Assembly: GCA_964366355.1 (NCBI GenBank)
Contig: CAYITO010000004.1
Span: forward strand, 1-33,004
Direction: 5' to 3'
Length of the DNA stretch: 33,004 nt
From: an uncultured archaeon
GTDB lineage: Archaea > Aenigmatarchaeota > Aenigmatarchaeia > CG10238-14 > SCSR01
The notes beneath the pieces are model-generated. The model ran no database searches. It was not told where the DNA came from and saw only the letters and a program-made list of their open reading frames with translations. This document shows positions 6,906-31,468 of this stretch, in pieces. Every line of letters starts with the position of its first letter. The first letter of the stretch is position 1. The position numbers and the translations under genes were made by a program.

Positions 6906-7475
6906 TTATTTTCCGCCAGTTACCCAAAAAACCAGCAATCCAGTTACGACAATAAACAATAAAATAATCATGTCCTGACCAGACAAGCCTGGCAAGAAAC
7001 TGCCAGCCCTAGTGAAACCTAGAGCTACCAACCCGCCGCTGTTGATAAAAACACCAACAACGACAAGCACTAAAACGAGGGCTACATACTTTCCGAATTG
7101 ATAACCCCTACCAACCTGTCTTGGATTCCCTTGTGCATCCTGAGCAATAATAGGGGGTCCTAAAGTTTCGCCTAAAAGTACCAGAACAACAATCCCAATA
7201 ATCAAAGTTATCAAGGTTATTGTAGACTGCTGGAAGAATTGCCCAAAGAATCCGCTTAGCGTAATTCCAGCTGGTGTAAATCCTATCACGAATAGTGCTA
7301 CAGAAAATGCAATTATAGCGTTAAGCGCGTTTGTTATTCTTTCATTTGCTCGTCCAAAAATTCCAACTCTGGATAACAATCCATACAGCAATGCGAAAGT
7401 AATCAAAAAAGGCAGATAGAATGCGAATATGCCAGCATCCCTTGACACTGCAAGCAATTGGTCGAATATTCCCAT
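6906..7475 (-). CDS. Polytopic membrane protein, paralogue family A
   Basis: G.F.FYLPFLITFALLYGLL..GIFG..NAIIAFSVA...FFGQFF; about 5 TM segments. Confidence 0.85.
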   Translation of the reverse strand: MGIFDQLLAVSRDAGIFAFYLPFLITFALLYGLLSRVGIFGRANERITNALNAIIAFSVALFVIGFTPAGITLSGFFGQFFQQSTITLITLIIGIVVLVLLGETLGPPIIAQDAQGNPRQVGRGYQFGKYVALVLVLVVVGVFINSGGLVALGFTRAGSFLPGLSGQDMIILLFIVVTGLLVFWVTGGK

Positions 7476-7521
7476 TTTCAAACCTTTTTAATAGATAATT
7501 GACAATAAAAAGATAAATATA

Positions 7522-8079
7522 TCACTTGGTTTCCTTCTCTCCGCCAGCACCTAAACCCGCTATGCCTATAACAGTTACAGCCAATAGAACCACAACTACT
7601 ATGGTCAAAAGTATATCCTCAGGTATACCGCCAACCACCGTCTGCGGGAAGAACGCGTTCATCAACCCGCTTGAAATTACTATCCCAATTGATAGCAAGC
7701 CGCCAAGAAGTAAAAACGAAACAAGCATATTCCCCTTAAACTTCTCCTCCATAACTTCCCCCAAGCTCTTCTTTAAGAACATACCTGTCACAAGCAGGCC
7801 AACCATTACCGTCAGCAGCACAACAACCCCACTGAAGAAGAATTGCGCCAGCTGCTTTTCTATGTTAACACCTATCAGCACTGGGTAAGCCCAAACCATG
7901 AATGCAGCTACAAGAGCAACTACAGCATTAACCGCCACATTCCTCTCCGGCATGCCGAATATCTGGCTTCTCCTTAACAACCCATAGAATATCGCAGCCG
8001 TCAGCATGAATGGGAATAGGAACTGGAATGCGCCTATATCCTTCAACCGCAGTATTACTGTTTCAAATGGCGATACCAT
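7522..8079 (-). CDS. Polytopic membrane protein, paralogue family A
   Basis: GAFQFLFPFMLTAAIFYGLL..IFG..NAVVALVAA..LAQFF. Start moved to ATG 8079 to avoid overlap with the upstream gene. Confidence 0.85.
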   Translation of the reverse strand: MVSPFETVILRLKDIGAFQFLFPFMLTAAIFYGLLRRSQIFGMPERNVAVNAVVALVAAFMVWAYPVLIGVNIEKQLAQFFFSGVVVLLTVMVGLLVTGMFLKKSLGEVMEEKFKGNMLVSFLLLGGLLSIGIVISSGLMNAFFPQTVVGGIPEDILLTIVVVVLLAVTVIGIAGLGAGGEKETK

Positions 8080-8086
8080 GCAATCA

Positions 8087-8635
8087 CTACTTCTGCTCTC
8101 CTCCAGACATTGATGCGGATGCAAGCATGATAATTACCATGAAAATAATTAATCCAGCAACAATTAATATCACATCCCTAGGAGCGCTTGGACCTTCGCC
8201 CTCACCAGAACCTGATGTTATCACGCCAACCAACCCGCTTGTTACGAATAGAGCGATAGCAATGCCGATGAACATATACACTTTTGAAGGGCTGGCAAGC
8301 TTTTCCGACAGCGCTTTTGGAAAATCCGGGTAGAACATGCTTGCAAAAATCAAGGCAAGAATAAAAATCAACCCGACGATGGTTAGCTGCGTAAAGAAGG
8401 CTGACAACTGGGTTCCGAATGTCGATCCAATCAAAATAGGATAGCCGAATACAAGAAACGCAACCGAAAGTGAGACAACAGCAGCAAGTATCTGACCTTC
8501 CTTGGCCTCTGAAAAATATTTCGACTTCCTTAGCAATGCATAAATCAATACTGCGGTTAGGACAAACGGGAAGAAGAAGTTGTAAAAACCAAGATCGCCA
8601 AGCCCCTGCGCAACCGATTCAAAAATATTCGCCAT
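8087..8635 (-). CDS. Polytopic membrane protein, paralogue family A
   Basis: GFYNFFFPFVLTAVLIYALL..YF..AAVVSLSVA..GYPILIG..LSAFF; closest to 7522-8079. Confidence 0.85.
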   Translation of the reverse strand: MANIFESVAQGLGDLGFYNFFFPFVLTAVLIYALLRKSKYFSEAKEGQILAAVVSLSVAFLVFGYPILIGSTFGTQLSAFFTQLTIVGLIFILALIFASMFYPDFPKALSEKLASPSKVYMFIGIAIALFVTSGLVGVITSGSGEGEGPSAPRDVILIVAGLIIFMVIIMLASASMSGGEQK

Positions 8636-8674
8636 CAGCCTCAATTAATTAATTCTTCTGCAAGGAATTTAAGT

Positions 8675-9280
8675 TTAAGCTGTAAGAGGCATGCCCAATT
8701 TCGCCTTCATCACGTTTATTTTCTCGTTCACCTTGTTTATCTTCTTCTCTACATTCATCTCGGCCACAGGATTCCCTTTCGAACTTTTCAGTTTGGATAT
8801 AAGATGGTCCCTCTCCTGTTCGAGCCTCCTCAATTTCACCTCCATCCCAGATGTCGGTTCCCCGGCCTTTTTAATGATTCCTTTGAACAGGGATTTGCCT
8901 GGCGTCCCACCGCGTCTGAGCACCAGACGGAGAAAGATATCTATAACCTTGCCATAAACGAACCCCAAGGCTATCAACACAACGGATGCAAATAATGTCC
9001 CAGATTGCCCCAATGATTTTGTAAGATTGTCTATTACTGACAGGTATGGAGTTATTTTAGACGCCACTGCAGGTACAAAGTTTACAGTCACCAATCCTGC
9101 CGCTACGATTACACCTGCAATCAATCGCCATGTTATCTTTAGCCTAATCAAAGAAAGCAGGAAGAACACGGCAGAGAATGCCAGTATCGGCACAAGATAT
9201 TGGGACGGAACCAAATTCGAGACTTGACCCAAGTTCGGCAGTTGTTCGATAGGTAATGTAGGAATTTGGAATAATGCCAT
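8675..9280 (-). CDS. Membrane protein with basic C-terminal coiled coil; possible distant family A member
   Basis: Three hydrophobic segments (YLVPILAFSAVFFLL...) followed by a K/E-rich heptad tail. Confidence 0.75.
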   Translation of the reverse strand: MALFQIPTLPIEQLPNLGQVSNLVPSQYLVPILAFSAVFFLLSLIRLKITWRLIAGVIVAAGLVTVNFVPAVASKITPYLSVIDNLTKSLGQSGTLFASVVLIALGFVYGKVIDIFLRLVLRRGGTPGKSLFKGIIKKAGEPTSGMEVKLRRLEQERDHLISKLKSSKGNPVAEMNVEKKINKVNEKINVMKAKLGMPLTA

Positions 9281-9305: not shown

Positions 9306-9794
9306 TTATTTTGCATACCTGACGATGATCATGATTACAGCTATGACTCCCAGAAGGACGAAGAGGAAAGGTGGGATGGGGAAGGCATCTGAAGACAGTC
9401 CCAGAAATCTAAGCACGTCAGTGTTGACCAGAAGATAGAAAGCCAGAATTGCGGCAACTATTAAAAGCCAAGAAGGTATAGGTTCCTCGGTCACAGAAGG
9501 TTTCCTTGCAATTCCCAATAAGAACGCTATGATGATGAAGATTACAAGGAATATCAGCAGTACAGCGGTGCCGGAAAACAGCTGCCTGAATAGCTGGATT
9601 ATTGGAAGGCCGGCAGGAGAAAATACAACCAGCAGGGAAATGCTGACGGCCAGCAGGACGCTCATCCTCTTGTCAGGGATTATCTTGGCTCTTACCAGGA
9701 CAGCATAAAGGATGGTGAAGATTATCAGGAAAGGTATTACAGTATCGAAAGCGCCGCTTCTAAACGCTTCTGATATTAAGTCTGTAATTGCCAT
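9306..9794 (-). CDS. Polytopic membrane protein, paralogue family A
   Basis: GAFDTVIPFLIIFTILYAVL...SVLLAVSISLL...FRQLF. Confidence 0.85.
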   Translation of the reverse strand: MAITDLISEAFRSGAFDTVIPFLIIFTILYAVLVRAKIIPDKRMSVLLAVSISLLVVFSPAGLPIIQLFRQLFSGTAVLLIFLVIFIIIAFLLGIARKPSVTEEPIPSWLLIVAAILAFYLLVNTDVLRFLGLSSDAFPIPPFLFVLLGVIAVIMIIVRYAK

Positions 9795-9810: not shown

Positions 9811-10719
9811 TTAGAAAGAAATAGATGATTCGGGGCCTATGATATTCTTACCGCATTTTATTTCAGGCAATCCAAATCTTTCAGTAAGTTGCGTCCCTAT
9901 GCCTGGAAATTCTATCTTCGGTATGTTAACACCAAATGGAAATAGCGGAATCTGGCCCTCAAGGACCCAAAACAGGTAAACACCAATTAACGAGAAGACA
10001 ACAAGCATTATCCCTATATTCATTGGAGTAAATCGTCTTCTAGGACGTTCTCCTCCAGGAGGTCCTACTATTGTTGATGTGAATGTAAAACCAACTATGA
10101 TTATTATGGGAATTATCCACCAGTTAGTCCAACCAAAAACTAAGATATAAGCAGCTATGAAGAAATCAGTCAAATGTGTCAATGCAGCTATACGATTTCT
10201 ACCTTCATTGTCCGTCATCACCATAAATCCTATAATCCTCACAACAACTGCCAAGAAAAAGGAAAATGCATTAACAAACATCAACGGATCAGTCTGATGC
10301 AACATGAAAATGCTAAAGGCTGTGCTTATCAGCAATACTACACTCCAGTATTCTGCTCCTTTAATTAAACCTTTGTATCGTTCCTCATGTTCAGTCCATC
10401 TACCCCATCTAACTAGAGGTCCTGTAGTTCGTCCTAATAAAACCGAAAATAAAATAATCCCAAATACAATGTTAACAACAAATGGCACTACCTTCTGAGT
10501 TGCCAAACAAAACCTGCAGTCCAAAGTTGATAGAGTAGAGCATTGATCTGGCAAGAATCCAAATAAAGCTGTGATAGCGCCAACTATAGGCGGTTCCAAT
10601 ATTGGTGTTACAAGAATCGATTGAAGTAGAGGGATAAAGACAATTGTTATTACACCAAGAATCACAATCCCAAGCAGTAGGAATAAAACCAAAAGTATGA
10701 AGGCAATTTGACCTTTCAT
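9811..10719 (-). CDS. Polytopic Cys-motif membrane protein (family B) with class III-like N-terminus
   Basis: MKG|QIAFILLVLF; FGFLPDQC-x7-C-x2-C...KVVPF; C-terminal Cys. Confidence 0.8.
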   Translation of the reverse strand: MKGQIAFILLVLFLLLGIVILGVITIVFIPLLQSILVTPILEPPIVGAITALFGFLPDQCSTLSTLDCRFCLATQKVVPFVVNIVFGIILFSVLLGRTTGPLVRWGRWTEHEERYKGLIKGAEYWSVVLLISTAFSIFMLHQTDPLMFVNAFSFFLAVVVRIIGFMVMTDNEGRNRIAALTHLTDFFIAAYILVFGWTNWWIIPIIIIVGFTFTSTIVGPPGGERPRRRFTPMNIGIMLVVFSLIGVYLFWVLEGQIPLFPFGVNIPKIEFPGIGTQLTERFGLPEIKCGKNIIGPESSISF

Positions 10720-10725
10720 TAAAAA

Positions 10726-11346
10726 TCACTCTAAGAGAAAGCAGGGGCTTTGCATTATATCAATTACAGGCTGTACACTGAGTAGTCCTCCAGGTTGTGT
10801 CAAATTTGTATAGAATGTCCAGACTATGCCTATTGAAAACAATAGAACAAACATCCCAAGAAGAGGCGAAAGTGGGTGTATTGCATACAGAAAAGTTACA
10901 ACTATCACAATAGAAAATACAAGTATCAAAATTGATTGTAATTGGCTAATGCTTACGAAAAGAAGGTTTACATCTCTAGTATGTAGTGCGGCTAATCCTA
11001 ATGCTATCGATATCAAAATTGCTGCATAGTAGAATGAAGGAGTTACTCTTTTTAGATCAAACACTTCAGGTCTTCCTATAGCTTCTCCAGGCCTACCACC
11101 AAATATTCTAAAAACTATAAATACCATTGCGAAATAGGTTAGACCGAAGAAAAATGTGAAAGGAAGTATCTTTACTTGACCAAGGCATGCTATGCAATCG
11201 GAACTACTTAGTGAAAACGTACAAGCCTGTGGCAATGGGCCCAAAACGCCTCTTACCAAACCTCTTGAAACTAAGTCGGATTGGGCTATTACAATAGGTA
11301 ATAAGAGTAAAAAAGATAAGGTAAGAGTGCTCAAAATCCTTTTCAT
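10726..11346 (-). CDS. Polytopic Cys-motif membrane protein (family B) with Sec-type signal peptide
   Basis: MKRILS..VIA|Q; RGVLGPLPQAC-x8-C-x2-CLGQVKILPF.FFFGL.Y; C-terminal Cys. Start is 11346 or 11352. Confidence 0.82.
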   Translation of the reverse strand: MKRILSTLTLSFLLLLPIVIAQSDLVSRGLVRGVLGPLPQACTFSLSSSDCIACLGQVKILPFTFFFGLTYFAMVFIVFRIFGGRPGEAIGRPEVFDLKRVTPSFYYAAILISIALGLAALHTRDVNLLFVSISQLQSILILVFSIVIVVTFLYAIHPLSPLLGMFVLLFSIGIVWTFYTNLTQPGGLLSVQPVIDIMQSPCFLLE

Positions 11347-11391
11347 AAACAAACCAACTAATTAATTACTTAGTAGAAAATGTAAATATCC

Positions 11392-12165
11392 TTATTGACA
11401 AATGCCTAAACTGAAGTCTTCACTCGGTTTAAACAATTCAGGCAAGAAGCCAGCTCCTATATCTCCCCTTATGATCGCAAACAAAATTAAATAAAGTATA
11501 AGCAGGATAACTCCAACTATATTGCCAGTGAATGTGCCCCGCAAGAAATAAAAAGCGAATGTGAAGAATAAAGTCGCCCCAAATACAACGAAAAACGGTA
11601 CAATATCCTGACTTCCTGCAAATGATGCTGCAAACCCTATTAAAACTCCGAACATGACTAATGTCAAAACAAATAACACAACCATCCATATCGGATTCCC
11701 TCCGACATCTGGTGTAGCTCCAAAGGCATTTAAAATTCTGAAAACAAAGAATGCAATCACAGTAACCATAGACATGACGATTAAACTGCCTACCCAATCC
11801 CTGAATGTAGCTATTCTTGATAAAGCACTTCCTACATCAATTTGAACTATGAAAAATGACAGTGCAATGCTGATTAAAATAACACCAACTTGTATGCTGG
11901 GAACGTTTGCTGGAGGATGACCTTTAGTGAAAGATTTTACCCCAATAACCAAAATTAGATAAAACAAACCGAAGAAAAACGCCAACGGCAATAACTTTAC
12001 ATAGCCTAGGCAGTAAATACATACAGAACTTGTAACATCCGAACATGCATTGGGCAAATCACCAAGCAAGCCTCTTAAAACGCCTGTTGTAGCTTCTTTA
12101 TCAGCTTGAGCAAATACAGTTGGCAATAGTAACAGGAAAATTAGAATTGTTCTTTGGAAATTCAT
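11392..12165 (-). CDS. Polytopic Cys-motif membrane protein (family B) with Sec-type signal peptide
   Basis: ..VFA|Q; RGLLGDLPNAC-x7-C-x2-CLGYVKLLPL.FFFGLFY; C-terminal Cys. Confidence 0.82.
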   Translation of the reverse strand: MNFQRTILIFLLLLPTVFAQADKEATTGVLRGLLGDLPNACSDVTSSVCIYCLGYVKLLPLAFFFGLFYLILVIGVKSFTKGHPPANVPSIQVGVILISIALSFFIVQIDVGSALSRIATFRDWVGSLIVMSMVTVIAFFVFRILNAFGATPDVGGNPIWMVVLFVLTLVMFGVLIGFAASFAGSQDIVPFFVVFGATLFFTFAFYFLRGTFTGNIVGVILLILYLILFAIIRGDIGAGFLPELFKPSEDFSLGICQ

Positions 12166-12725
12166 TATACTACCCCAGTTGCTCTACGTCTTATCCTTCG
12201 GTTTATAAAACCAGTGATAAGCTCACCTAAACTTTCAATAGATTCTCCTAAACTTTGAAAAGATGGTTCTAAAAAAGTACTATATAAGTTTTTTAATTCC
12301 CCATAAACACCTCCACTACTTTCCCCAGAAATTGTCACTTTACTTAGTGTTGTGTGAAGACCTTCTTGCATTCCCCTTACCCTTTCTTGGTATCCGGGAG
12401 CAATTTCTTTTATAATAGAATTCGCCTCCTTTTCTATCTTATATAAATCTTCTTTTGTTATGTCACCACGTCTATATGCTTTTTCAGCCTCTGGGATGAC
12501 TTGACGTGCACTTCTCATATCTAAATAATCTTCATGAGCTCCCCGCAATCTAGCATAAGACCCACTTATATCACTTCCTACTTGATAAGGAACGCCAGCG
12601 GCACGAGCATAAATGTATCTACCAATGCTTCTCGTCCTATCCCCTATTCTATATCTAGCTAGCCCAACACCTACCAAAACTATGCCAAAAGCCAATATAA
12701 CCCAAAGGACTAATTCTGCTGCCAT
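12165..12725 (-). CDS. Single-pass membrane protein with ISGESSGGVYGEL motif
   Basis: N-terminal TM followed by basic residues; its stop overlaps the next ATG by one base; paralogous to 14111-14452. Confidence 0.75.
   Translation of the reverse strand: MAAELVLWVILAFGIVLVGVGLARYRIGDRTRSIGRYIYARAAGVPYQVGSDISGSYARLRGAHEDYLDMRSARQVIPEAEKAYRRGDITKEDLYKIEKEANSIIKEIAPGYQERVRGMQEGLHTTLSKVTISGESSGGVYGELKNLYSTFLEPSFQSLGESIESLGELITGFINRRIRRRATGVV
12293..12332. repeat. Perfect 40-bp direct repeat, copy 1
   Basis: ttaattccccataaacacctccactactttccccagaaat, identical to 14179-14218. Confidence 0.95.
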
Positions 12726-12788
12726 TCTCTCTAAATTAATTTCCTTTTTTACTAAAATAACAAATACCTAACAGTGCAAGTTTAATTC

Positions 12789-13097
12789 ATGGTATACATT
12801 CCTTTAATCCTCATATTACTTTTATTGTGGACAATAGACGGCTATCTAACATTCGGAGTTTTTAAGAAGTATGGTCCTGAAGCCGAAGAAAATCCAATAC
12901 TCAAACAACTGCTCCGTCATAATGTAAAATACTTTTTATTGTTCAAGCTTTTTGATGCTGTAGCATTTGTTGTTATAATTTTCTTGATAATTAACAAAAA
13001 CGAAATGATTGCTATAGTACTTTTGACTATTTTCATACTTTTGTATTCTTACGTTAATTTAAAGAATTATAAAGTTCTCAAGGAAAAGAAAGATTAG
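12789..13097 (+). CDS. Small membrane protein, DUF5658-like
   Basis: Three TM segments with the D..LT...G..E.NP pattern recalled for DUF5658. Confidence 0.65.
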   Translation: MVYIPLILILLLLWTIDGYLTFGVFKKYGPEAEENPILKQLLRHNVKYFLLFKLFDAVAFVVIIFLIINKNEMIAIVLLTIFILLYSYVNLKNYKVLKEKKD

Positions 13098-13115: not shown

Positions 13116-14087
13116 TTATTCAGACGGAATCGAAATGAGAGGTGAAGCTCTACTTTGACGTATACCTTCAGCCATGTTTTCACTCCATTCTGTCCTAGCA
13201 GCAGAAGTTACAGCTGCTTCAAATGCTCTCGCAAGCGCACCACCCTCAAGACCCCGCTGACGAAATGCATCTAATTGTGTACCATAAGCTTCTGCCTGTA
13301 AGGTGGCAGCCCGCCTTCTAGCTGTAGCAGAAGCAACAATAACCTCAGCTTGTTCTAGTTCTTTCATAATTTCAGGTGTATAATTAATTTCTGCTGTAAT
13401 GTCATCAACATGAAGATTCAATCTCCGTCCAAATTCTCGATTTAATTTAGGTAACTCCTTTCGAATATCATCTTCAAGGTTTTTTTGAGCGAGTGGTACT
13501 GTATATTTTTCCCTTGCTCTTTCAAGAGCAAGATTCCTAACTCTTGTTATTAAACCTGCTACAGCTTCCGAAAGACCTTCTTGAGTTTCTCTGTACCTTG
13601 TAATAAAATTGATAATCTCCGGTGCCAGTTCTCTGACAGGTCTTTTATCTCCTAGATCAATAGCGTCTCTTTGGGGTTTGGTCATAGCAAATCTAACGTA
13701 AATATTTAGTTTCATAACTCCTGGTACAGCTTCAAATTCCTGATTTTCTTGAGGTTCTACAACTGTTTCTCGTTTGAATACGGCATCTATATCAGTTGGA
13801 AAATTCAAGCTACCCAAGTAGAATTTATAACCACTATAAGTGAAAAGTCCACGAAAACGTATTCCCCATGGCGAAGCAGAATAAGTACCCGATAAAGCAT
13901 CTCTTTTAACATAAACAAAAGGAGCAGATGCAGCATTTAGTATGAAAGGGGTAAGAGGGATGAAAGAATACGGTTCAATAAATCTTTCAACATATCTTCC
14001 TTCTTCAGGTCTTCGTGCTCTATCAACTATGTCATATAATCCTTGTATTCTTTGCCTTCTATCAATTACAGCTTGTGCTTGAACCAT
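13116..14087 (-). CDS. Divergent SPFH (band 7/prohibitin)-like protein
   Basis: C-terminal half reads IRKEL..LNREFG..L.V.DI..I...PEIMKELEQ...A.A.RRAA.LQAEA, like the SPFH2 end plus Ala/Glu coiled coil. GGAGG Shine-Dalgarno at 14095-14099. Confidence 0.6.
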   Translation of the reverse strand: MVQAQAVIDRRQRIQGLYDIVDRARRPEEGRYVERFIEPYSFIPLTPFILNAASAPFVYVKRDALSGTYSASPWGIRFRGLFTYSGYKFYLGSLNFPTDIDAVFKRETVVEPQENQEFEAVPGVMKLNIYVRFAMTKPQRDAIDLGDKRPVRELAPEIINFITRYRETQEGLSEAVAGLITRVRNLALERAREKYTVPLAQKNLEDDIRKELPKLNREFGRRLNLHVDDITAEINYTPEIMKELEQAEVIVASATARRRAATLQAEAYGTQLDAFRQRGLEGGALARAFEAAVTSAARTEWSENMAEGIRQSRASPLISIPSE

Positions 14088-14110: not shown

Positions 14111-14452
14111 TTAAGGATGCAACTGCCTTCCAATATAATCTAACAAACCAGAAGTGCCAGAGGTATCAAACACATCCCTTAATTCCCCATAAACACCTCC
14201 ACTACTTTCCCCAGAAATCGCAGTTCTACTTAAAATTCCACCAAGACCCTCTCTAAGCCCTTCCGTACCTCTTTCATAAATAGGACGTAACCATGCCATA
14301 TACGCAGCAGCTTCATTCTGTGTTATTTGCCCCCGCCCTTGCATTCCATCTACCTCTCCCATAAGTTGGTAAGCTGCAGCTGAATCTCTAAATTCTCTAG
14401 CCCGTCCTACAGCATCATTCCTCATACGCTTAAAGACATTCATACCATTCAC
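14111..14452 (-). CDS. Hypothetical soluble protein with ISGESSGGVYGEL motif
   Basis: Aligns with the C-terminal half of 12165-12725 (RG.IT..., EGL...LS...ISGESSGGVYGEL). Start uncertain. Confidence 0.7.
   Translation of the reverse strand: MNGMNVFKRMRNDAVGRAREFRDSAAAYQLMGEVDGMQGRGQITQNEAAAYMAWLRPIYERGTEGLREGLGGILSRTAISGESSGGVYGELRDVFDTSGTSGLLDYIGRQLHP
14179..14218. repeat. Perfect 40-bp direct repeat, copy 2
   Basis: Identical to 12293-12332. Confidence 0.95.
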
Positions 14453-25430: not shown

Positions 25431-25901
25431 ATGAGAAAAGGGGTAGCCGTACCATACGTAATTGCAATCCTTCTAGGAATAGTTGTGATTGCCATAATAG
25501 GGTTTACTTTCTTCACATCAACTACAAGTATATCAGTACAAGACTGCCGGAACAAGTTGAGCACTTATTGTAGTTTGTGGAGTGCTACTGGTTATACCGG
25601 CAAGCCTTCTGGGGAATGGGATGATTTTGCGAAGGGATGTTCACAATTAGGTGTTGCAGATCCCAGCGAACCAGATTGTAGAGCCCGCATTGGAACTTTA
25701 CTAGGAGTGGGGGCAACATGTGAAAATAATGCAGAATGTCAGTCTAAAGTTTGTGAACCAAATTGTGTACCAACTTGCCCTACAGGTTTTGCATCTAGAG
25801 CAACTCCAACATGTACAAACGCAAGATGTAGTGTAACTTGTCTCAAAGCAGGCGAGGCAGATCAAACTGCAACCTGTTCTACACCCAAGAAGTGTAAATA
25901 A
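25431..25901 (+). CDS. Pilin-like protein, 4-Cys core plus Cys-rich tail
   Basis: MRKG|VAVPYVIAILLGIVV; CRNKLSTYCSLW; 14 Cys in total. Confidence 0.85.
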   Translation: MRKGVAVPYVIAILLGIVVIAIIGFTFFTSTTSISVQDCRNKLSTYCSLWSATGYTGKPSGEWDDFAKGCSQLGVADPSEPDCRARIGTLLGVGATCENNAECQSKVCEPNCVPTCPTGFASRATPTCTNARCSVTCLKAGEADQTATCSTPKKCK

Positions 25902-25939
25902 TTTTCTTTAAATTAATGTAAAAGCAAAATAATTAATTA

Positions 25940-26320
25940 ATGTCAAAAGGCGTGGCTGTCAGCTACATAATCGCAATAGTTTTGGGCATAGTAATTTTGG
26001 CATTGCTCGGGTTTTGGTTTAATAAAGAAGGTACTCTCTTTGGAAGTATTGCAGACCAGGAAACTTGTAAGGCAAAACTAATAGCATATTGCACTTCTTG
26101 GTCAACAAGCGGATATGATGATAATAAAAAGCCTGGTGAGAACGAAGATTTTTATGCTATACACAAGGATTGCGAGCCACATAAAAAATTACTTACTGGT
26201 GGTAAAACCGGTAACGACATCGAAACTAAATGTAAAGAGCTTCTTAGACAAACTAGCCAACCACCCACAGCACAACCTCGGCCCACATCTACTTCTCCAC
26301 AACGTCCTCCAGCACGCTAA
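25940..26320 (+). CDS. Pilin-like protein, 4-Cys core plus Pro/Thr/Ser/Gln tail
   Basis: MSKG|VAVSYIIAIVLGIVI; CKAKLIAYCTSW. Confidence 0.85.
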   Translation: MSKGVAVSYIIAIVLGIVILALLGFWFNKEGTLFGSIADQETCKAKLIAYCTSWSTSGYDDNKKPGENEDFYAIHKDCEPHKKLLTGGKTGNDIETKCKELLRQTSQPPTAQPRPTSTSPQRPPAR

Positions 26321-26377
26321 ATTAAAAAACCAACAGCGAATAAGAAGAATATTATAGAGGGAAGTTAAGATTAAATT

Positions 26378-26671
26378 ATGAAAGCAATCGCAGTAAATAC
26401 TATTTTTATAATCATAACCACACTTATGTTTTTCTTTTTTGCAATCGTGCTTACCTTTGGTTTCATCGATTTTTTTGGAACGGAAGCTACACAGATGGGT
26501 TGCGGTGTCAAGCTGTTAAATTACTGCACTTTTTGGGCTGTCAAAGATTTCGCAGAAGGCGACAAGCCGTATGAATGGGAGGAAAAATCACCAGAAGGAT
26601 GCGATAAGTTCCTCAAGGGCGTAGGCGCTAAAGGACCGTCAAAAGCCCAATGCAATCCAATAGTAAAATAA
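26378..26671 (+). CDS. Pilin-like protein, 4-Cys core only
   Basis: MKA|IAVNTIFIII; CGVKLLNYCTFW. Confidence 0.82.
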   Translation: MKAIAVNTIFIIITTLMFFFFAIVLTFGFIDFFGTEATQMGCGVKLLNYCTFWAVKDFAEGDKPYEWEEKSPEGCDKFLKGVGAKGPSKAQCNPIVK

Positions 26672-26691
26672 TAGAAAGGTAAATATTAACT

Positions 26692-27084
26692 ATGACACTC
26701 AGCGCTGTCGATGTTCTATTGTTTATTGCATATTTCGCCATTGCTGTATGGTTTGGCACAATGCTGTTCCCTAAAATAATAGAGGATGTACAGCAAAGTA
26801 TAGCGAGAACGTCTACACATGCCGTCGCTTTAGAATTATCTGGGTTAACCTCTTTAACTGGCGCAGCTACAGAAGATATAAAAATTGATTATGATATACA
26901 GGATGAAGTAGTGCATGAGGTGACTGTAAAAGGGAAGCTTATTAATGTAATCAGAGTTGACAATACTAAACAAAATTTCCTATACTCACTCCCATTTAAG
27001 TTTGCAATTGACGATACAGCAGTCGGAGCAAATTTCCGAATTTTTAAGCTGAATGATGAATATGGGATAGAGAAGATTGGATGA
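26692..27084 (+). CDS. Single-pass pilin-like protein without a basic leader
   Basis: N-terminal hydrophobic helix, then an amphipathic helix and beta-rich region; ATGA-coupled to the next gene. Confidence 0.65.
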   Translation: MTLSAVDVLLFIAYFAIAVWFGTMLFPKIIEDVQQSIARTSTHAVALELSGLTSLTGAATEDIKIDYDIQDEVVHEVTVKGKLINVIRVDNTKQNFLYSLPFKFAIDDTAVGANFRIFKLNDEYGIEKIG

Positions 27085-27611
27085 GAAGCAAAGGACAGCT
27101 TTCAAACATTTTTGTAAGACACTTTTTCTTTATGCTTGCGGTTGCACTTTTCTTTTTCCTGCTATTTTTATATTGGGGGGCTCAGATAAATGCCGAGGAA
27201 GTTCTAAATGAAAACGAAATTTTAATATCCAGAAAGATTGTGTATGCAAAAGTGCTTTTGAGTTCTTATATGCTGGCATATGAAGATGAAAATGGCGTAC
27301 ATGCTGGTATGTTAGATGAAAACAAAATAAAAAATTTGGACGAGGATAGACTGTTTGAAACTTATAGCTATCAAGCCGATGACATAGAAGTTAACGCCCC
27401 TGGAGGCGGCAGATTTATCCCCAAAAGCTATGCCCACCTAGTTAGGATCGAAGTGTTAGAACCGAAGACCGAAATTCTAAAAGAAGTCAAGCAGGTAAGA
27501 TACGGAGTTGGATTTGCCAATCCGATAGAATTTCCCCTAACAATTAGGGATGAACAAGGTAATGTAAAATTGGGCAGGATACTTGTTAACATAGTTCCGG
27601 TGGAGAGATGA
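27081..27611 (+). CDS. Minor pilin-like protein
   Basis: MRSKG|QLSNIF..FFFMLAVALFFFLL; ATGA overlaps on both sides. Confidence 0.75.
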   Translation: MRSKGQLSNIFVRHFFFMLAVALFFFLLFLYWGAQINAEEVLNENEILISRKIVYAKVLLSSYMLAYEDENGVHAGMLDENKIKNLDEDRLFETYSYQADDIEVNAPGGGRFIPKSYAHLVRIEVLEPKTEILKEVKQVRYGVGFANPIEFPLTIRDEQGNVKLGRILVNIVPVER

Positions 27612-28051
27612 AAGGCATACTTGATTTACCTATTTTGATCATTCTGCTAATTGTATTCATCCCATTTTTACTTGTAGGACCAGAGATCCTAAGGATTAAC
27701 ATACAAACCCAATACGCAATTAATTATAAGACTCTCATTGCTAAAGATACATTGCTTTCTATATTGTCAGTTACAAACCCCGATTTCCTAAACGATAACA
27801 AGCCAAAACTCACGTTGGAAATCATAGGAGAAAGGCTTTCGATAGCTGGCCAGAAGGTGGAATTTTTGATAAGTGATTTAGACAAGCTTGTGAAAAGCAA
27901 ATGCTACCTGTTAGAAAGCGGAAATGTTAAGCTTGCCGATAAAAGTTGTTCTGATCTTAAGGATCAAAAGTATCAAACGAATCCAGTCAAAATTGTTTTG
28001 CCTTTCCATCCAAAAAAACTTGTTGAAAATATTAGGCTGGCGATTAAATGA
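27608..28051 (+). CDS. Minor pilin-like protein
   Basis: MKG|ILDLPILIILLIVF; ATGA overlaps. Confidence 0.75.
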   Translation: MKGILDLPILIILLIVFIPFLLVGPEILRINIQTQYAINYKTLIAKDTLLSILSVTNPDFLNDNKPKLTLEIIGERLSIAGQKVEFLISDLDKLVKSKCYLLESGNVKLADKSCSDLKDQKYQTNPVKIVLPFHPKKLVENIRLAIK

Positions 28052-29172
28052 GAAAAGGTCTATCTATCGTGCATTTCATTATTTTCATACTTATTTTCCT
28101 TTACGCAGGCATTGGATTTATTTACATCTCTTCGTTTAGAGAAATCGAAACCATTCGAAAAGGCGTTGGTGAAATGCTTATAGCTGATGGCATAGATGAC
28201 ATGGAACTTTTAAGGAGAAATTTACAGCAAGCACTAAGCTATTCCTACTATCAATCATCGTTTGAAATTGCGAAGAATGGTGGCAATTCTGAAGCATCAG
28301 TAAAATGGAGATATTACGGTGATACATCAGGCTTTCCAACAGACTTTATAAAAATCTTGACTTCCAGAACACTTGAAATGCTAAACCAATATAGCCATCA
28401 GTTGACTGGCGGAAGAATTACAACAGTAGATTATACACAGGTTGATGTAGAAAGAGATGACAAGGAAGATAAAGAGCATATAAGCGCCTTTTCTAAGGAT
28501 GAGAAAAACAACGATAAGAAACTCAAAATAGTCGGAGGTTTGCTTGGTATTAAATATGAATTAGAAAACAAGGCAAATGTTTTTGCCAAGCTTCCTACTA
28601 AGACTTTAACTTTGTTTGGAATAGGTAAAGAAAATTTTGTGTCAATTGATAAAACAAAAGAAAAAATAATTGAAGCAATAACCGCAATCGGGTTTAAATC
28701 CAACTATAATGAAAATTTACAAACAACAACTGGAAGTATGGAACTATGCGGTATACAACCTACACAAGAGCAAGTTTTTAAAAACGAAAATGGTTTTGAA
28801 ATTTCAGAAGGCGAAAATCAAATTTTAGAGAATACAGATTCAAAATTAAATTCCTTAGGTGAAGAGCTAAGTACATCTACAGTTTCAACTAGATTATCTG
28901 TGGTTGATAAAAAAAGTAAGATAATCCCAACATGCACACCCAGTACAGGAGGATGTTGTGAACGATCTGAAAGTGGTTGTGTTAAAGAGTTTAAAATAAC
29001 AACATGCACATTCAAATATGTTGGTGCAGCCAAGGTTAAAGTTTCCATTTCAGATATAGCAAACAAATATCCAGTTTACGATTCCACACTTGATAAAAAC
29101 ATCATGAGCAATATCCAGTTAAACTTTAATGTGGTTTCTGGGAATGATTATAACCAAAAATTAATTCAATAA
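28048..29172 (+). CDS. Large minor pilin-like protein
   Basis: MRKG|LSIVHFIIFILIFLY; long helix ending in IAKNGG; Cys cluster near the C-terminus. Confidence 0.75.
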   Translation: MRKGLSIVHFIIFILIFLYAGIGFIYISSFREIETIRKGVGEMLIADGIDDMELLRRNLQQALSYSYYQSSFEIAKNGGNSEASVKWRYYGDTSGFPTDFIKILTSRTLEMLNQYSHQLTGGRITTVDYTQVDVERDDKEDKEHISAFSKDEKNNDKKLKIVGGLLGIKYELENKANVFAKLPTKTLTLFGIGKENFVSIDKTKEKIIEAITAIGFKSNYNENLQTTTGSMELCGIQPTQEQVFKNENGFEISEGENQILENTDSKLNSLGEELSTSTVSTRLSVVDKKSKIIPTCTPSTGGCCERSESGCVKEFKITTCTFKYVGAAKVKVSISDIANKYPVYDSTLDKNIMSNIQLNFNVVSGNDYNQKLIQ

Positions 29173-29191
29173 GTCCTCGTTGACTAAACAC

Positions 29192-31468
29192 CTATTGTGG
29201 AGCAGGGAATTTACATATGTCATTCGCGCCCCAAACTCCCCAATCCGCACCGTTGCTTGATATCTGACAAGCAATATCAATATTTCTATCTATCTCGTCA
29301 ATTCTTTGAACACATCTAGCATATCTATCCATATCAGCATCTTTAACCCAGCAATTACGTAATTTACAATATCTGATTCCTTGGGTTGTAGTAGCCCATT
29401 CCAGACAACTTCCAAGGGACCCACCATCTGTTTCGAAGAGACCTACACAGTCCCCACCAATTTTCTCCGCATGCGCAATTACATTAATTTGAAATAGCCC
29501 ATGAGAATACACAGTTCCATCTTTGCATCTATCAGTTCCACTCGGTTTGAGTGGATCGCCACCGCTTTCTTTATTGCAAATAGCTGACGCTTTAGGCGCA
29601 TTACTACCAAAACATGTATCCTTCAACTTATCTATAGTACAGCCACCACTAATATCGCGAGGACATTCAGATGTGGAGCCAAGTGGCTGTTCCCCTTCCT
29701 CAACTTTACCAATAGTCTCTGTACTCATAGGTATGTTAGCTTTTACAAATGTTGCCACATAATTATATTCCACCTCAGCCTTGAATTGGTATGCCCTAAA
29801 TTCAATTATGCCTTCAGTGTCAACTTTTTCTTGACTGCGCAATGACGGCGGAAAGTCATTTATCTGATACCTGCAAATATAAGTATGCTCTTTTAGTATC
29901 CTTGGAGCTAAATCTTCCACCTTTTTAATACTACCAAGTGTACCCTCCTCATCTTTGAATAGAATATTTTTAGCACTTGGCCCTAAAGACTCTAAAAAGC
30001 AATTGCCACCTAGAAACGGCAATATACCTTTAACTAGGTTTGTATATTCTTTTGGGAAAGTTCCTTCTGGAGTTTTAAAAGGAAATATCTTTACAGATTT
30101 TACCTCTATCTTGGCATCCTTCTCGTCCTTGTTTATCAGCCTAACTTTTACATCTTTCACATTGTGGATACAATACCCACCTGTTGAGCTGAATAAAGTT
30201 TCAGGTAATTTTTCGCATAGACCCCCACTATCTACAAAGTAACCATCGCCACCTTCACTCTCATCTCCGACTGTATAGAATGGAGGTATGACTACAACAT
30301 CCAAAGGTCCTGAAAAGGTATTGGGACAGTTATTGTTTTTGAAATTGGGATCTTGCTGCTTTGCCACAGCATCTTTGCTATCTTTGAAAATCAGCAGAGT
30401 GCCGATTCCAACGCCTTTCTTATCCTCCTTGTCGTATCTTATCTTGGCTTCAATATTCACCTCAGCTTTTATACCAGATTTGAATTCAATTTTTTTTGTG
30501 GTAATCAAGTCCACAGTTTTCTCGCCACTGGGTCCGGGCTCTATCAAGCAGCCATTAGGAGGCAAACAGCCCAAAGGAGTTAATAAATTAAATGCTATCG
30601 GCTTTTTGATATCCTTAATTTTCTTATCCGTTTCCCCTTTTATAAAGGAGCCTTCGGCATCTAAATTTATAATTTCATTCCCATCTTCAGTCTTTTCACT
30701 ATCCAGTGATTTACCTGGAGCAATTATAACATTCAAGGGCTTCTTGACATTCTCATCCAGCTTAATCTTAACAGTTAACTTATAGAACTCCCCTCTCAGT
30801 GGCCATGCAGGAGCTTGTATGCCGACAGAAATAGGCTTACCGCTTTCAATGACATTCCCCTCTTCATCAAGCTTTCTGTATTTGACATTGCCCTGCTCAT
30901 CCGTACCACACGCTATTTCTTCTTTTGTCTTTTCCTTTTCCCCTGGCACATCTATCTTTGGCAGAAAACTTACCTGCTCTGCTATAGAGTTCCATCCTGA
31001 AATGAATTGTTTTACTTGCGGTATTGCCAAAAGCGATTCTACACCCGCTGTTATAAGAGGTTTTACAATAAAAATTGGAATAAAGATTGTGAAAAGGTAG
31101 AATATTATGAGCTCAACGATAGCACGGCCCATTGGCGGTGGATGTAAGAAATATGGCGGCTGGGGTTCTGAATAGTTACTAGCTCTCAACCAGCCAAAAA
31201 GAAAGAACATTATCATTGGCAACCATCTGAAGAGAAGCTCGCCAAAACCTGGTAAAGGAAGTGCCTTTCCAAGCTCTCCCAATAAGTCTAAAAGGTTGTC
31301 TAACTGAAATGTCCAAACTATTGTAGGAATTACTGCAAATAAAATAAGAAAAATGATAAAACGCGGATTGCCAATTTTACTACCAAGACCTTTTCCTTTT
31401 CCTTTTGGCGGTGTTACACCACCTGGGGCTCCCACTGGATATCCTGGTTGGCCTGGTCTTAATTGCAT
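29192..31468 (-). CDS. Membrane-anchored surface protein with beta-rich ectodomain and C-terminal SLT/lysozyme-like domain
   Basis: Pro/Gly N-tail and about 3 TM helices; C-terminal ASAICNKESGGDP...SHGLFQIN...NIDIACQIS..G.DW..W. Confidence 0.82.
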   Translation of the reverse strand: MQLRPGQPGYPVGAPGGVTPPKGKGKGLGSKIGNPRFIIFLILFAVIPTIVWTFQLDNLLDLLGELGKALPLPGFGELLFRWLPMIMFFLFGWLRASNYSEPQPPYFLHPPPMGRAIVELIIFYLFTIFIPIFIVKPLITAGVESLLAIPQVKQFISGWNSIAEQVSFLPKIDVPGEKEKTKEEIACGTDEQGNVKYRKLDEEGNVIESGKPISVGIQAPAWPLRGEFYKLTVKIKLDENVKKPLNVIIAPGKSLDSEKTEDGNEIINLDAEGSFIKGETDKKIKDIKKPIAFNLLTPLGCLPPNGCLIEPGPSGEKTVDLITTKKIEFKSGIKAEVNIEAKIRYDKEDKKGVGIGTLLIFKDSKDAVAKQQDPNFKNNNCPNTFSGPLDVVVIPPFYTVGDESEGGDGYFVDSGGLCEKLPETLFSSTGGYCIHNVKDVKVRLINKDEKDAKIEVKSVKIFPFKTPEGTFPKEYTNLVKGILPFLGGNCFLESLGPSAKNILFKDEEGTLGSIKKVEDLAPRILKEHTYICRYQINDFPPSLRSQEKVDTEGIIEFRAYQFKAEVEYNYVATFVKANIPMSTETIGKVEEGEQPLGSTSECPRDISGGCTIDKLKDTCFGSNAPKASAICNKESGGDPLKPSGTDRCKDGTVYSHGLFQINVIAHAEKIGGDCVGLFETDGGSLGSCLEWATTTQGIRYCKLRNCWVKDADMDRYARCVQRIDEIDRNIDIACQISSNGADWGVWGANDICKFPAPQ

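What the first reader, a model, noticed from the sequence alone, without database searches (positions are those of the whole stretch)
6906..31468. Candidate system: archaeal type IV pilus locus armed with peptidoglycan hydrolases and coupled to a multi-paralogue membrane module
Seen: about 24.5 kb between dph5 and alba, made of two divergent arms. The right arm has an ATPase, a platform and eleven pilin-like genes with SLT+M23, crystallin, CBM-like and Cys-rich cargo, closed by a convergent surface protein with a second SLT domain. The left arm has two coiled-coil proteins, an SPFH-like protein and about eight related polytopic membrane proteins. Known: SLT and M23 domains cut the glycan and peptide parts of bacterial murein. 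Archaea lack murein, and pseudomurein is lysozyme-resistant. Characterised DPANN are contact-dependent symbionts of other archaea. Inference: a contact apparatus that binds a bacterial cell, opens its wall locally and builds a membrane junction or conduit, which would imply a bacterial host or prey. The role of the left arm is the most speculative part. I cannot confirm novelty without a literature and database search.
Basis: partly seen in the sequence, partly recalled or inferred. Interest (0 to 1): 0.92.

Follow-up and report, generated by a model that had tools for sequence, protein, structure and literature searches.

The report
Archaeal pilus locus carrying bacterial-wall-cutting enzymes
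A tiny groundwater archaeon (Aenigmatarchaeota) has fused enzymes that cut bacterial cell walls onto the building blocks of its conserved surface-filament machine, which suggests how such archaea could attack or feed on bacteria.

Summary
Window 15717-31474 encodes a type IV filament system: a FlaI/TadA-type ATPase, a fused double-T2SSF platform and ten pilin-like genes. One pilin-like gene carries intact SLT and M23 domains. A convergent membrane protein ends in a lysozyme-like domain, shown by family relatives and by a fold model. The divergent left arm is real but mixed. Two cytoplasmic coiled-coil genes and a family of small polytopic membrane paralogues lie beside the ATPase in relatives. 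About 4.6 kb of the arm (the 'SPFH-like' gene and a second membrane family) was found only in this genome. The ATPase is a single-copy core gene in 120 of 121 sampled genomes of the phylum. The hydrolase cargo is accessory: a same-genus relative lacks both wall-cutting modules. In another family of the order, SLT, M23, M15, NlpC/P60, Amidase_2 and M14 domains sit on pilin-like or anchor proteins of the same locus. Across the phylum, 27 of 49 SLT-bearing frames start with a pilin-like signal. The idea that DPANN murein hydrolases point to bacterial hosts is already published. The fusion to pilins and the link to this locus were not found in print. Nothing supports a 'membrane conduit' role for the left arm.

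The parts
6906..7481 (-). Family A small polytopic membrane protein (paralogue 1)
   Evidence: It has 4-6 hydrophobic segments and pairs by BLASTP with g7522, g8087 and g9306. Relatives have orthologues next to dph5.
7522..8079 (-). Family A membrane protein, the best conserved paralogue (185 aa)
   Evidence: 281 homologues reach E<=1e-3, and the named ones are Aenigmarchaeota. A few carry DUF350. Identity in relatives is 39-55%.
8087..8644 (-). Family A membrane protein (paralogue 3)
   Evidence: It is 31% identical to g7522 at E 3e-21. It has orthologues in 9 of 10 relatives.
8675..9280 (-). Membrane protein with a C-terminal charged, coiled-coil-like tail; belongs to no family
   Evidence: Hydropathy. 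No significant Pfam, PHROG or PADLOC hit.
9306..9794 (-). Family A membrane protein (divergent paralogue 4)
   Evidence: Weak BLASTP links to g6906, g7522 and g8087. Similar proteins occur in the left arms of relatives.
9811..12165 (-). Three family B membrane proteins (9811-10719, 10726-11352, 11392-12165) with a signal-like N-terminus and 4 Cys each; part of a low-GC insert found only in this genome
   Evidence: They are paralogous. GC is 0.37-0.38 against 0.44-0.46 for family A. No link to the left-arm membrane proteins of relatives at E<=0.01.
12165..12725 (-). Single-TM protein, paralogue of g14111
   Evidence: 37% identity over 89 aa at E 5e-13.
12789..13097 (+). DUF5658 small membrane protein on the opposite strand
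   Evidence: Pfam 1e-07. GC 0.288.
13116..14087 (-). 323-aa soluble protein, the 'SPFH-like' candidate
   Evidence: No HMM hit. In the Atlas feature search, 26 of 30 hits are Band_7 clusters at score 0.94 with a low shared-feature count. At E<=1e-3 it was found in 2 of 41 genomes: this one plus one marginal hit.
14111..14452 (-). 113-aa soluble paralogue of g12165
14578..15246 (-). Conserved cytoplasmic protein: small N-terminal helical domain, P/Q-rich linker, C-terminal coiled coil
   Evidence: It lies beside the ATPase in 10 of 10 fetched relatives, and also in G002 and G035 (N-terminus read by eye). Alignment A2 shows the three conserved modules.
15287..15676 (-). Conserved 129-aa coiled-coil protein, divergent from the ATPase across a 40-bp spacer
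   Evidence: Present in 10 of 10 relatives. Alignment A4. Spacer length.
15717..17951 (+). FlaI/TadA-type secretion ATPase (744 aa), a core gene of the phylum
   Evidence: T2SSE 3.9e-16. TadA 1.5e-36 and FlaI 2.6e-32. Found in 41 of 41 relatives at 52-86% identity and in 120 of 121 genomes of the phylum at E<=1e-100.
18014..20218 (+). Polytopic platform protein with two T2SSF-like repeats
   Evidence: hhalign against this genome's canonical platform genes gives 96.3% (residues 456-609) and 91.5% (residues 180-342). Syntenic in all relatives examined.
20215..21336 (+). Pilin-like protein (MHRKG followed by a hydrophobic helix) with SLT and M23 domains; overlaps the platform stop codon by 4 nt
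   Evidence: No full-length homologue among 5.8e9 protein clusters. Absent from same-genus G002.
21642..22340 (+). Cys-rich pilin-like protein (starts MEKG)
   Evidence: Orthologue in G002.
22510..22968 (+). Crystallin-like ORF with no signal; the frame is open 67 codons upstream without a start codon
   Evidence: Crystall 23.6 bits, cut-off 25. Frame read. Absent from G002.
23014..25368 (+). 784-aa pilin-like protein with 28 Cys; residues 325-500 form a beta-sandwich, CBM-like module
   Evidence: The G002 orthologue lacks residues 325-488.
25431..26671 (+). Three small paralogous pilins (25431-25901, 25940-26320, 26378-26671), candidates for the major subunit
   Evidence: They are paralogous. 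Their N-termini are conserved across relatives.
26692..29172 (+). Four further pilin-like genes with 4-nt overlaps (26692-27084, 27081-27611, 27608-28051, 28048-29172)
   Evidence: Orthologues in G002 and others.
29192..31474 (-). Convergent membrane protein (charged tail, TM segments, large Cys-rich ectodomain) ending in a lysozyme-like SLT_3 domain (29195-29725)
   Evidence: The G002 orthologue (587 aa) matches residues 40-587 only, so it lacks this domain.

Best explanation
The locus is the Aenigmatarchaeota-wide type IV filament machine: ATPase, double-T2SSF platform, small major-type pilins and several modular minor pilins.

In this species two components gained bacterial-type wall-cutting modules. 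One is a pilin-like protein carrying SLT, which cuts the glycan, and M23, which cuts the peptide cross-link. The other is the convergent membrane anchor, which carries a lysozyme-like domain.

Inferred mechanism:
1. The genome's A24 prepilin peptidase processes the class-III-type N-termini.
2. The ATPase and platform insert the subunits into a filament or a short pseudopilus.
3. The bulky hydrolase pilin ends up at the tip or base of that structure, and the anchor protein displays its lysozyme-like domain on the cell surface.
4. On contact with a bacterium, murein is cut locally. This would serve attachment to, penetration of, or feeding on a bacterial partner or prey.

Shown by computation: gene and domain identities, intact catalytic motifs, pilin-like N-termini, the conserved core with swappable cargo, and no own murein synthesis genes found. 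Inferred only: processing, assembly, position in the filament, enzyme activity and the target organism. The left arm probably supplies cytoplasmic and membrane accessory parts, but its role is unknown.
For: - Machine parts are identified. A prepilin peptidase A24 lies on contig C1.
- SLT and M23 are above cut-off, and the M23 zinc ligands align to active enzymes.
- The second lysozyme-like domain is supported by its family (37 of 50 relatives match SLT_3) and by its fold.
- In the 41-genome set there are 8 SLT places above cut-off. Six lie in frames with pilin-like N-termini and two in the convergent anchor. Six of the eight lie in or beside this locus.
- All 5 genomes of family f4 have a murein hydrolase domain in the locus: M23 (G027); SLT + Amidase_2 (G032); SLT (G035); NlpC/P60, M15_4 and NosD+SLT (G037); M15_4+SLT and SLT+M14 (G039).
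- Across the phylum, 36 of 121 genomes have SLT above cut-off. By eye, 27 of 49 SLT-bearing frames have a pilin-like N-terminus. For comparison, 39 of 929 crude ORFs in this genome match my pilin pattern.
- No Mur ligase, PBP or SEDS gene was found in the genome.
- The modules are species-specific gains relative to same-genus G002.
Against: - No experiment, no expression data and no identified partner organism.
- Most of the closest relatives carry no hydrolase in the locus. SLT was found in 0 of 24 other f1 genomes of the relatives set, so wall-cutting is not the core function of the machine.
- Many SLT and M23 genes of the phylum lie outside the locus or lack a pilin-like start. Four M23 ORFs in f1 look cytoplasmic.
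- Pilin-like N-termini are common in this genome (about 4% of ORFs). They may simply be a general export or anchoring route.
- N-termini were classified by eye on my own crude ORF calls, without a signal-peptide predictor.
- Neither hydrolase carries a recognised murein-binding domain such as LysM or PG_binding_1.
Confidence: 0.6

Rival explanations
1. Contact-independent use. The hydrolases are surface-anchored or released enzymes that scavenge murein fragments and necromass, or that kill competitors much as a bacteriocin does. On this reading the pilin-like N-terminus is only an export or anchoring signal, comparable to the class-III signals on Sulfolobus sugar-binding proteins, and no filament carries the enzymes.
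For: - Class-III-like N-termini are frequent in this genome: 39 of 929 crude ORFs, spread over at least four loci.
- Pilin-like SLT proteins also occur as solitary genes far from any pilus locus, for example in G035:C2 and G027:C17.
- Secreted archaeal murein hydrolases that kill bacteria are documented experimentally (passages read in PMC12352652).
- The distribution is patchy, as it is for weaponised hydrolases.
Against: - The hydrolase modules are repeatedly placed inside this one locus, on its minor-pilin positions and on its convergent anchor.
- g20215 overlaps the platform gene by 4 nt.
- No recognised murein-binding domain was found that would target a freely diffusing enzyme.
Confidence: 0.25
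2. One reading: the right arm opens the bacterial wall, and the left-arm membrane paralogues, the SPFH-like protein and the coiled-coil proteins build a membrane junction or conduit into the partner cell.
For: - The two coiled-coil genes lie beside the ATPase in 10 of 10 fetched relatives, and also in G002 and G035.
- Family A paralogues are present in 9 of those 10 relatives and in G035. They are expanded in several left arms.
- The divergent spacer between the arms is only 40 bp.
Against: - The SPFH-like gene and family B were found only in this genome, inside a low-GC insert.
- The coiled-coil proteins have no TM segment.
- The housekeeping flanks dph5 and alba are conserved in position as well, so adjacency alone is weak evidence.
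- No known pore or fusion family was detected.
- The core left arm is present in the many relatives that carry no hydrolase.
Confidence: 0.08
3. The enzymes act on a polymer other than murein: pseudomurein or a glycan of an archaeal host, or the organism's own envelope.
For: - All cultivated DPANN have archaeal hosts (established knowledge, recalled).
- Lysozyme-fold and M23 domains can have other substrates.
Against: - Six families typical of murein turnover recur in the locus. They include Amidase_2, a MurNAc-L-Ala amidase, and M15_4.
- No Mur-ligase-type gene, which pseudomurein synthesis would need, was found in the genome.
- The relatives of the SLT_3 domain are mostly proteins that also carry T4SS_pilin (28 of 50). 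That Pfam profile is one of those used to detect T4SS pilins in Patescibacteria (passages read in PMC12102498).
Confidence: 0.05
4. Artefact: the hydrolase genes are bacterial or phage DNA that was mis-joined into the contig.
For: - The M23 part resembles bacterial proteins and phage tail or endolysin proteins.
- g20215 has no full-length homologue.
Against: - The N-terminus is an archaeal pilin-type signal like those of its neighbours.
- A 1132-nt contig in run X1 spans 19193-20324 with no differences. Contigs bridge 21579-23560 and 28378-29870. Runs from two studies cover 28-30 of 30 bins. X1 may be the sample the window was assembled from.
- GC of 0.409 lies within the locus range.
- Both flanks are syntenic with G002.
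Confidence: 0.02

Closest known systems
Modular type IV pilins (Streptococcus sanguinis PilB/PilC; Raynaud et al. 2021, PMC8179133, passages read)
   Same: An N-terminal class-III signal and pilin helix is followed by a grafted functional module. Such pilins are proposed to be tip-exposed minor subunits. That paper also notes peptidase modules (S74, M26).
   Different: This case is archaeal. The modules are murein hydrolases (SLT+M23, and in relatives Amidase_2, M14 and NosD+SLT). The passages I read mention no murein hydrolase module; the paper's Dataset S1 could not be seen. The bacterial IPR012902 motif was not tested here.
[quoted passage not shown]
   Same: These are DPANN archaea encoding GH23/SLT domains, and the authors interpret them as a sign of attachment to or attack on bacteria.
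   Different: They belong to a different phylum and are giant proteins of up to 3000 aa. Neither paper contains the words pili or pilus (term counts). Here the domains sit on pilin-like and anchor proteins of a conserved type IV filament locus, together with peptidase and amidase partners.
Secreted archaeal peptidoglycan hydrolases Woldo and Danwoldo of Halogranum (Strock 2025, PMC12352652, passages read)
   Same: Archaeal M23 and glycosidase enzymes with demonstrated bactericidal activity, patchy distribution and domain shuffling.
   Different: Those enzymes are exported by Tat and carry PG_binding_1 domains. That survey found Sec or Tat signals on only 32% of archaeal hydrolases, and the term 'class III signal' does not occur in it. 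Here export would go through the pilin pathway, and no murein-binding domain is recognised.
Specialised wall-cutting enzymes of trans-envelope machines: VirB1 and EtgA, the pilin+lysozyme proteins related to the SLT_3 domain, and the phage phi29 gp13 tail enzyme
   Same: A lysozyme or lytic transglycosylase, often paired with a peptidase, is attached to a filament, needle or tail to open murein locally.
- EtgA (Z 6.6) and phi29 gp13 (Z 3.3) appear in the fold search.
- Of 50 relatives of the SLT_3 domain, 28 carry T4SS_pilin.
- Peptidase and lysozyme genes next to virB4 are reported as essential for epibiotic growth of a Patescibacterium (passage read in PMC12102498).
   Different: Bacterial systems cut the producer's own wall. 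Here the producer has no wall of that kind. The carrier here is a type IV filament, not a T4SS, a T3SS or a phage tail. The lysozyme+M23 architecture of phi29 gp13 is recalled, not tested here.
Sulfolobus bindosome assembly system (Bas)
   Same: It works in a similar way: non-pilin surface proteins with class-III signals are handled by a dedicated ATPase and platform together with small pilin-like proteins (recalled knowledge).
   Different: This locus is not a member. The BasE model scores 47 bits against a cut-off of 1000. The cargo is hydrolases rather than sugar-binding proteins.

Membership tests
Archaeal type IV pilus / type IV filament system | Secretion ATPase of the T2SSE (FlaI/TadA/PilB) family | tested here: met
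   PF00437 at 59.1 bits against a cut-off of 24.9. TadA 1.5e-36 and FlaI 2.6e-32, both below the equivalog cut-offs.
Archaeal type IV pilus / type IV filament system | Polytopic platform protein of the T2SSF (FlaJ/TadC/PilC) family | tested here: met
   No Pfam or NCBIfam hit. A profile-profile comparison with the genome's own split platform genes gives 96.3% and 91.5% for two repeats. Those comparison genes were identified from their position next to T2SSE ATPases, not by Pfam.
Archaeal type IV pilus / type IV filament system | Substrates with class-III (prepilin) signal peptides | tested here: met
   Eight ORFs match the pattern M-x(0-9)-[KR]-[GA] followed by a hydrophobic helix. Two more have an N-terminal helix. 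The pattern is my own and no dedicated predictor was run.
Archaeal type IV pilus / type IV filament system | Prepilin peptidase (A24) available | tested here: met
   PF01478 at 46.4 bits at G000:C1:11434-11772. It is not in the locus.
Archaeal type IV pilus / type IV filament system | A filament is actually assembled | not testable with these tools
   Needs EM or proteomics.
SLT / GH23 lytic transglycosylase (g20215 residues 109-206) | Family HMM above cut-off, plus the catalytic Glu-Ser/Thr, GxMQ and AYNxG motifs | tested here: met
   PF01464 at 51.3 bits against 21.3. The sequence shows ATEETS, GIMQI and AYNSG. The motif definitions are recalled.
Peptidase M23 (g20215 residues 257-361) | HxxxD and HxH zinc ligands | tested here: met
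   HKGID and HLH align to TagE and zoocin A in the printed alignments. Lysostaphin is a listed hit. PF01551 scores 92 bits.
SLT_3 lysozyme-like domain (g29192 C-terminus) | Family HMM above the curated cut-off | tested here: inconclusive
   25.8 bits against 27 for the domain alone. A whole-genome scan did not report it. Of 50 relatives, 37 match SLT_3, best 1.6e-10.
SLT_3 lysozyme-like domain (g29192 C-terminus) | Lysozyme-type fold with a conserved Glu-Ser and GLFQIN | tested here: met
   pLDDT 90.6. All top Foldseek rows are c-type lysozymes, with prob 0.87-0.93 for the first six rows and E>=0.05. VIA gives Z 8.6 to Bombyx lysozyme and Z 6.6-5.9 to EtgA, DslA, Slt70, MltE and MltC. E53 and S54 are near-invariant; G76, Q79 and N81 are invariant.
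Beta/gamma-crystallin (g22510) | Family HMM above cut-off with paired Greek-key motifs | tested here: inconclusive
   19.9 and 23.6 bits against a cut-off of 25. Only one motif is matched.
SPFH / Band 7 (g13116) | Band_7 domain | tested here: inconclusive
   No Pfam or NCBIfam hit, even at E<=5. The Atlas feature search scores 0.94 with 128-134 shared features, which the tool itself calls low.
Carbohydrate-binding module (g23014 residues 325-500) | CBM-type beta-sandwich | tested here: inconclusive
   The Atlas model aligns to CBM_11-containing models at TM 0.70-0.76 by query. The whole-protein model is poor, with pLDDT 0.45. No Pfam hit.
Sulfolobus bindosome system (BasE) | BasE equivalog score | tested here: not met
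   47.1 bits against a cut-off of 1000.

The most novel reading that the evidence does not exclude
Aenigmatarchaeota share one near-universal, probably essential type IV filament that serves as their cell-contact organ. Lineages that graft murein-cutting modules onto its minor pilins and its anchor protein have switched to, or added, bacterial partners or prey. SLT, M23, M15, NlpC/P60, Amidase_2 and M14 modules are shuffled at species level. This would be cross-domain episymbiosis or predation by an archaeon, delivered by a hydrolase-tipped pilus. The conserved left-arm proteins would form the cytoplasmic and membrane base of that contact site.
Probability: 0.3. Interest if true: 0.88.

Novelty: new variant of a known kind. 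Interest (0 to 1): 0.72.

Why it matters
No archaeon is known to live on or prey on a bacterium by contact, and the hosts of Aenigmatarchaeota are unknown.

- The locus gives a concrete molecular hypothesis to test: a pilin-delivered set of murein hydrolases.
- It offers a marker that separates candidate bacteria-targeting lineages from their hydrolase-free sister species. The marker is the presence of murein hydrolase modules in a conserved locus.
- It suggests an export route for archaeal peptidoglycan hydrolases. In the published survey, 68% of them lack a Sec or Tat signal (PMC12352652, passage read).
- The phylum-wide, single-copy ATPase, which is often interrupted by an intein-like insert, marks the machine itself as central to the biology of this phylum.

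Tried and rejected
- Complex prediction of the ATPase (A1) with the conserved coiled-coil protein g14578 (A2) scored 0.18 against a mark of 0.32. The tool's verdict was 'no answer', so this says nothing for or against binding.
- A single-sequence AF2 model of the g29192 C-terminus failed (pLDDT 38.7). I repeated it with a 50-row alignment.
- A PDB sequence search with the whole of g29192 found nothing.
- A PDB profile search with A2 gave only generic coiled-coil matches.
- PHROGs and PADLOC gave no hit for the eight insert and left-arm proteins. g15287 gave two weak coiled-coil-type matches, to DruG and LmuB, which I take as composition effects.
- g13116 shows no similarity to the 362-aa ORF at the same place in G002.
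- The SLT_3 family scan over 41 genomes reported nothing anywhere, controls included, so it is uninformative.
- No RNA holder was listed for the stretch, so nothing can be said about expression.
- Logan contigs are short. Some bins in X4 and X5 had no cover, and the loose ends are those expected in metagenomes.
- A prophage origin for g20215 was considered because of its PHROG tail and endolysin matches. I rejected it: no phage genes lie nearby and the protein has a pilin-type start.
- Literature searches found no paper that links DPANN or Aenigmatarchaeota pilins or type IV pili to peptidoglycan hydrolases. Supplementary tables were closed and may list such proteins, for example S2 Table of PMC12352652, Supplementary Table 3 of PMC8204110 and Dataset S1 of PMC8179133.

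Full report
**Source and setting.** The window is contig C4 of an 847-kb, 73-contig genome that is 88.5% complete. Its closest public relatives carry titles naming Candidatus Aenigmatarchaeota. Runs that hold the stretch are labelled groundwater metagenomes. All gene calls below are my own ORF calls, not a curated annotation.

**Right arm (15717-31474).**
- The ATPase matches T2SSE (3.9e-16) and resembles TadA and FlaI most closely. Alignment with relatives puts its start at 15717.
- The 734-aa polytopic protein that follows has no Pfam or NCBIfam hit. A profile built from 12 orthologues shows two internal repeats that match this genome's own split platform genes (96.3% and 91.5%). It is therefore a fused double-T2SSF platform.
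- Ten ORFs follow that have one N-terminal hydrophobic helix. Eight begin with a short polar leader ending in K/R-G or K-A, for example MHRKG, MEKG, MKG, MRKG, MSKG and MKA. Several overlap by 4 nt.
- A prepilin peptidase (A24) is encoded elsewhere in the genome.
- The genome has five T2SSE matches. Three of them lie in further pilus-type loci with split platform genes.

**The hydrolase cargo.**
- g20215 overlaps the platform stop codon. It has a pilin-like start followed by SLT (1e-13) and M23 (2.8e-26).
- The SLT part shows ATEETS, GIMQI and AYNSG (the motif definitions are recalled). In the printed alignments the M23 part aligns its HKGID and HLH to TagE, zoocin A and a phage Gp16; lysostaphin is also a listed hit.
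- g20215 has no full-length homologue among 5.8 billion protein clusters. The best hits cover only the M23 part and, where named, are bacterial-type murein endopeptidases.
- The convergent 760-aa protein has a charged N-terminal tail, TM segments and a Cys-rich ectodomain. Its last ~170 residues score 25.8 bits against SLT_3, just under the cut-off of 27.
- That terminal domain has 527 relatives at E<=1e-3 among 1.84 billion representatives, nearly always at a C-terminus. I took 49 of the shorter relatives plus the query. Of these 50 sequences, 37 match SLT_3 and 28 also carry T4SS_pilin.
- With that alignment the AF2 model reaches pLDDT 90.6. Foldseek returns only c-type lysozymes at the top, with weak E-values. 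VIA-align returns lysozyme (Z 8.6), EtgA, DslA, Slt70, MltE and MltC (Z 6.6-5.9).
- The crystallin call stays below cut-off. The frame of g22510 is open 67 codons upstream without a start codon, so it may be a frameshifted tail of g21585.
- The 'CBM-like' module of g23014 rests on an Atlas structural lead only.

**Conservation of the machine.**
- The ATPase has one orthologue in 41 of 41 close relatives at 52-86% identity. It is present in 120 of 121 genomes sampled across the phylum at E<=1e-100. In roughly a dozen genomes the match is split in frames of about 900-1800 aa, as an intein would cause.
- I fetched ten relatives and found the same order in them: family A membrane genes, a variable stretch, g14578, g15287, then divergently the ATPase, the platform, 8-12 pilin-like genes and a convergent membrane protein.
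- g14578 and g15287 are present in 10 of 10, and also in G002 and G035. Family A is present in 9 of 10 and in G035.
- By eye, dph5 flanks the locus in 7 of 10 and alba in 6 of 10. Conserved adjacency therefore also covers unrelated housekeeping genes.

**Variation of the cargo.**
- Same-genus G002 keeps every pilin and the convergent protein. It lacks g20215, g22510, residues 325-488 of g23014 and the terminal lysozyme-like domain.
- In the 41-genome set, SLT is above cut-off at 8 places in 6 genomes. Six of the frames have pilin-like starts and two are the convergent protein. Six of the eight lie in or next to the locus.
- All five genomes of family f4 carry murein hydrolase domains in the locus:
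  - G027: the convergent protein carries M23.
  - G032: a 791-aa pilin-like protein carries SLT + Amidase_2.
  - G035: the convergent protein carries SLT.
  - G037: the convergent protein carries NlpC/P60, a facing 680-aa frame carries M15_4, and a pilin-like protein carries NosD+SLT.
  - G039: the convergent protein carries M15_4+SLT, and an 829-aa pilin-like protein carries SLT+M14 with a weak M23.
- Against the pattern:
  - Four M23 ORFs in f1 have no signal.
  - Four places were not examined: G025:C24, G027:C14, G001:C58 and G009:C40.
  - G035:C12 was also not examined.
  - SLT was found in none of the 24 other f1 genomes of that set.
- Across the phylum, 36 of 121 genomes have SLT above cut-off. 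I read the N-termini of 49 SLT-bearing frames by eye:
  - 27 are pilin-like.
  - 9 are large polytopic or charged-tail-plus-TM proteins.
  - 3 are Tat-like.
  - 5 have some other N-terminal helix.
  - 2 are Sec- or lipoprotein-like.
  - 3 are truncated or have no signal.
- The background in this genome is 39 of 929 crude ORFs, which includes some false positives.

**Left arm.**
- BLASTP splits the polytopic proteins into family A (g6906, g7522, g8087, g9306), family B (g9811, g10726, g11392) and a singleton.
- Family A has 281 homologues. Where named, they come from Aenigmarchaeota, and a few are labelled DUF350.
- The stretch 9811-14452 has lower GC. It holds family B, DUF5658, the g12165/g14111 pair and g13116.
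- g13116 was found in 2 of 41 genomes: this one plus one marginal hit. Family B shows no link to the left-arm membrane proteins of relatives, which instead form their own family A-like expansions.
- 'SPFH-like' is a language-model lead without HMM support.
- The two conserved coiled-coil proteins lack TM segments.

**Rivals.**
- The organism's own wall as substrate is unlikely. No Mur ligase, PBP or SEDS gene was found, with the caveat of 88.5% completeness.
- A chimeric assembly is unlikely.
- Contact-independent scavenging or competition cannot be excluded, because pilin-type starts are common here and some pilin-SLT genes stand alone.

**What is already known.**
- Murein transglycosylases in Woesearchaeota and Pacearchaeota, and the inference of bacterial partners, are in print (passages of PMC8204110 and PMC9723730).
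- Bactericidal archaeal hydrolases are in print. Only 32% of them carry Sec or Tat signals (PMC12352652, passages).
- Modular pilins are in print for bacteria (PMC8179133, passages).
- Seven full-text searches found no paper joining these for archaea or for Aenigmatarchaeota. Supplements were closed.

**Verdict.** The finding is a real, non-chimeric locus. It is a new variant of known kinds: an archaeal type IV filament system whose modular pilins and anchor protein carry swappable murein hydrolases.

Noticed in passing
ATPase orthologues, e.g. G009:C12:10926-14708, G039:C1:49435-53175, G033:C7: In roughly a dozen of the 121 genomes the ATPase match is split around residue 484 or 540, within open frames of about 900-1800 aa. 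That is the pattern an intein would produce in this highly conserved gene.
   Followed up: no
window 22309-22968: The crystallin-like ORF has no start codon for 67 in-frame codons upstream of its GTG, and it lies in a different frame from g21585. It may be a frameshifted C-terminal module of that pilin-like gene. Contigs from run X2 cover 21579-23560 with no differences.
   Followed up: partly
window 9811-14452: A low-GC insert (0.29-0.39, apart from g14111 at 0.44, against 0.44-0.50 for the flanking genes) sits between the conserved coiled-coil pair and family A. Its genes were not found in relatives with these queries, and none hit PHROGs or PADLOC.
   Followed up: partly
relatives of P0121 (window 29195-29725): Of 50 relatives of the lysozyme-like domain, 28 also carry the T4SS_pilin family (PF18895). 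This suggests the domain family circulates as pilin+lysozyme fusions of type IV secretion systems. Their taxa could not be looked up because the listing of cluster members was off.
   Followed up: partly
G000:C7:8963-17773, C21:825-6846, C33:1-5058: There are three further pilus-type loci, each with an ATPase, two split ~290-aa platform genes and their own pilins. The C7 locus also has a MinD/ParA-like gene (judged by eye).
   Followed up: no
G000:C25:8323-10257: A 644-aa protein with 32 Cys has a Sec-type signal, two Somatomedin_B domains (7.8e-12) and a sub-threshold SLT match (19.9 bits).
   Followed up: partly
L055 (G035:C15) 15312-19374 and L056/L040 (G039:C1): In family f4 a second platform-like gene, with its own set of pilin-like genes, follows the convergent protein. 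These genomes therefore carry a tandem second pilin cluster before alba. The 829-aa SLT+M14 pilin of G039 lies in that cluster.
   Followed up: partly
window 4047-4525: Two small overlapping ORFs of 76 and 83 aa look by eye like an antitoxin/RelE-type toxin pair. No tool was run on them.
   Followed up: no
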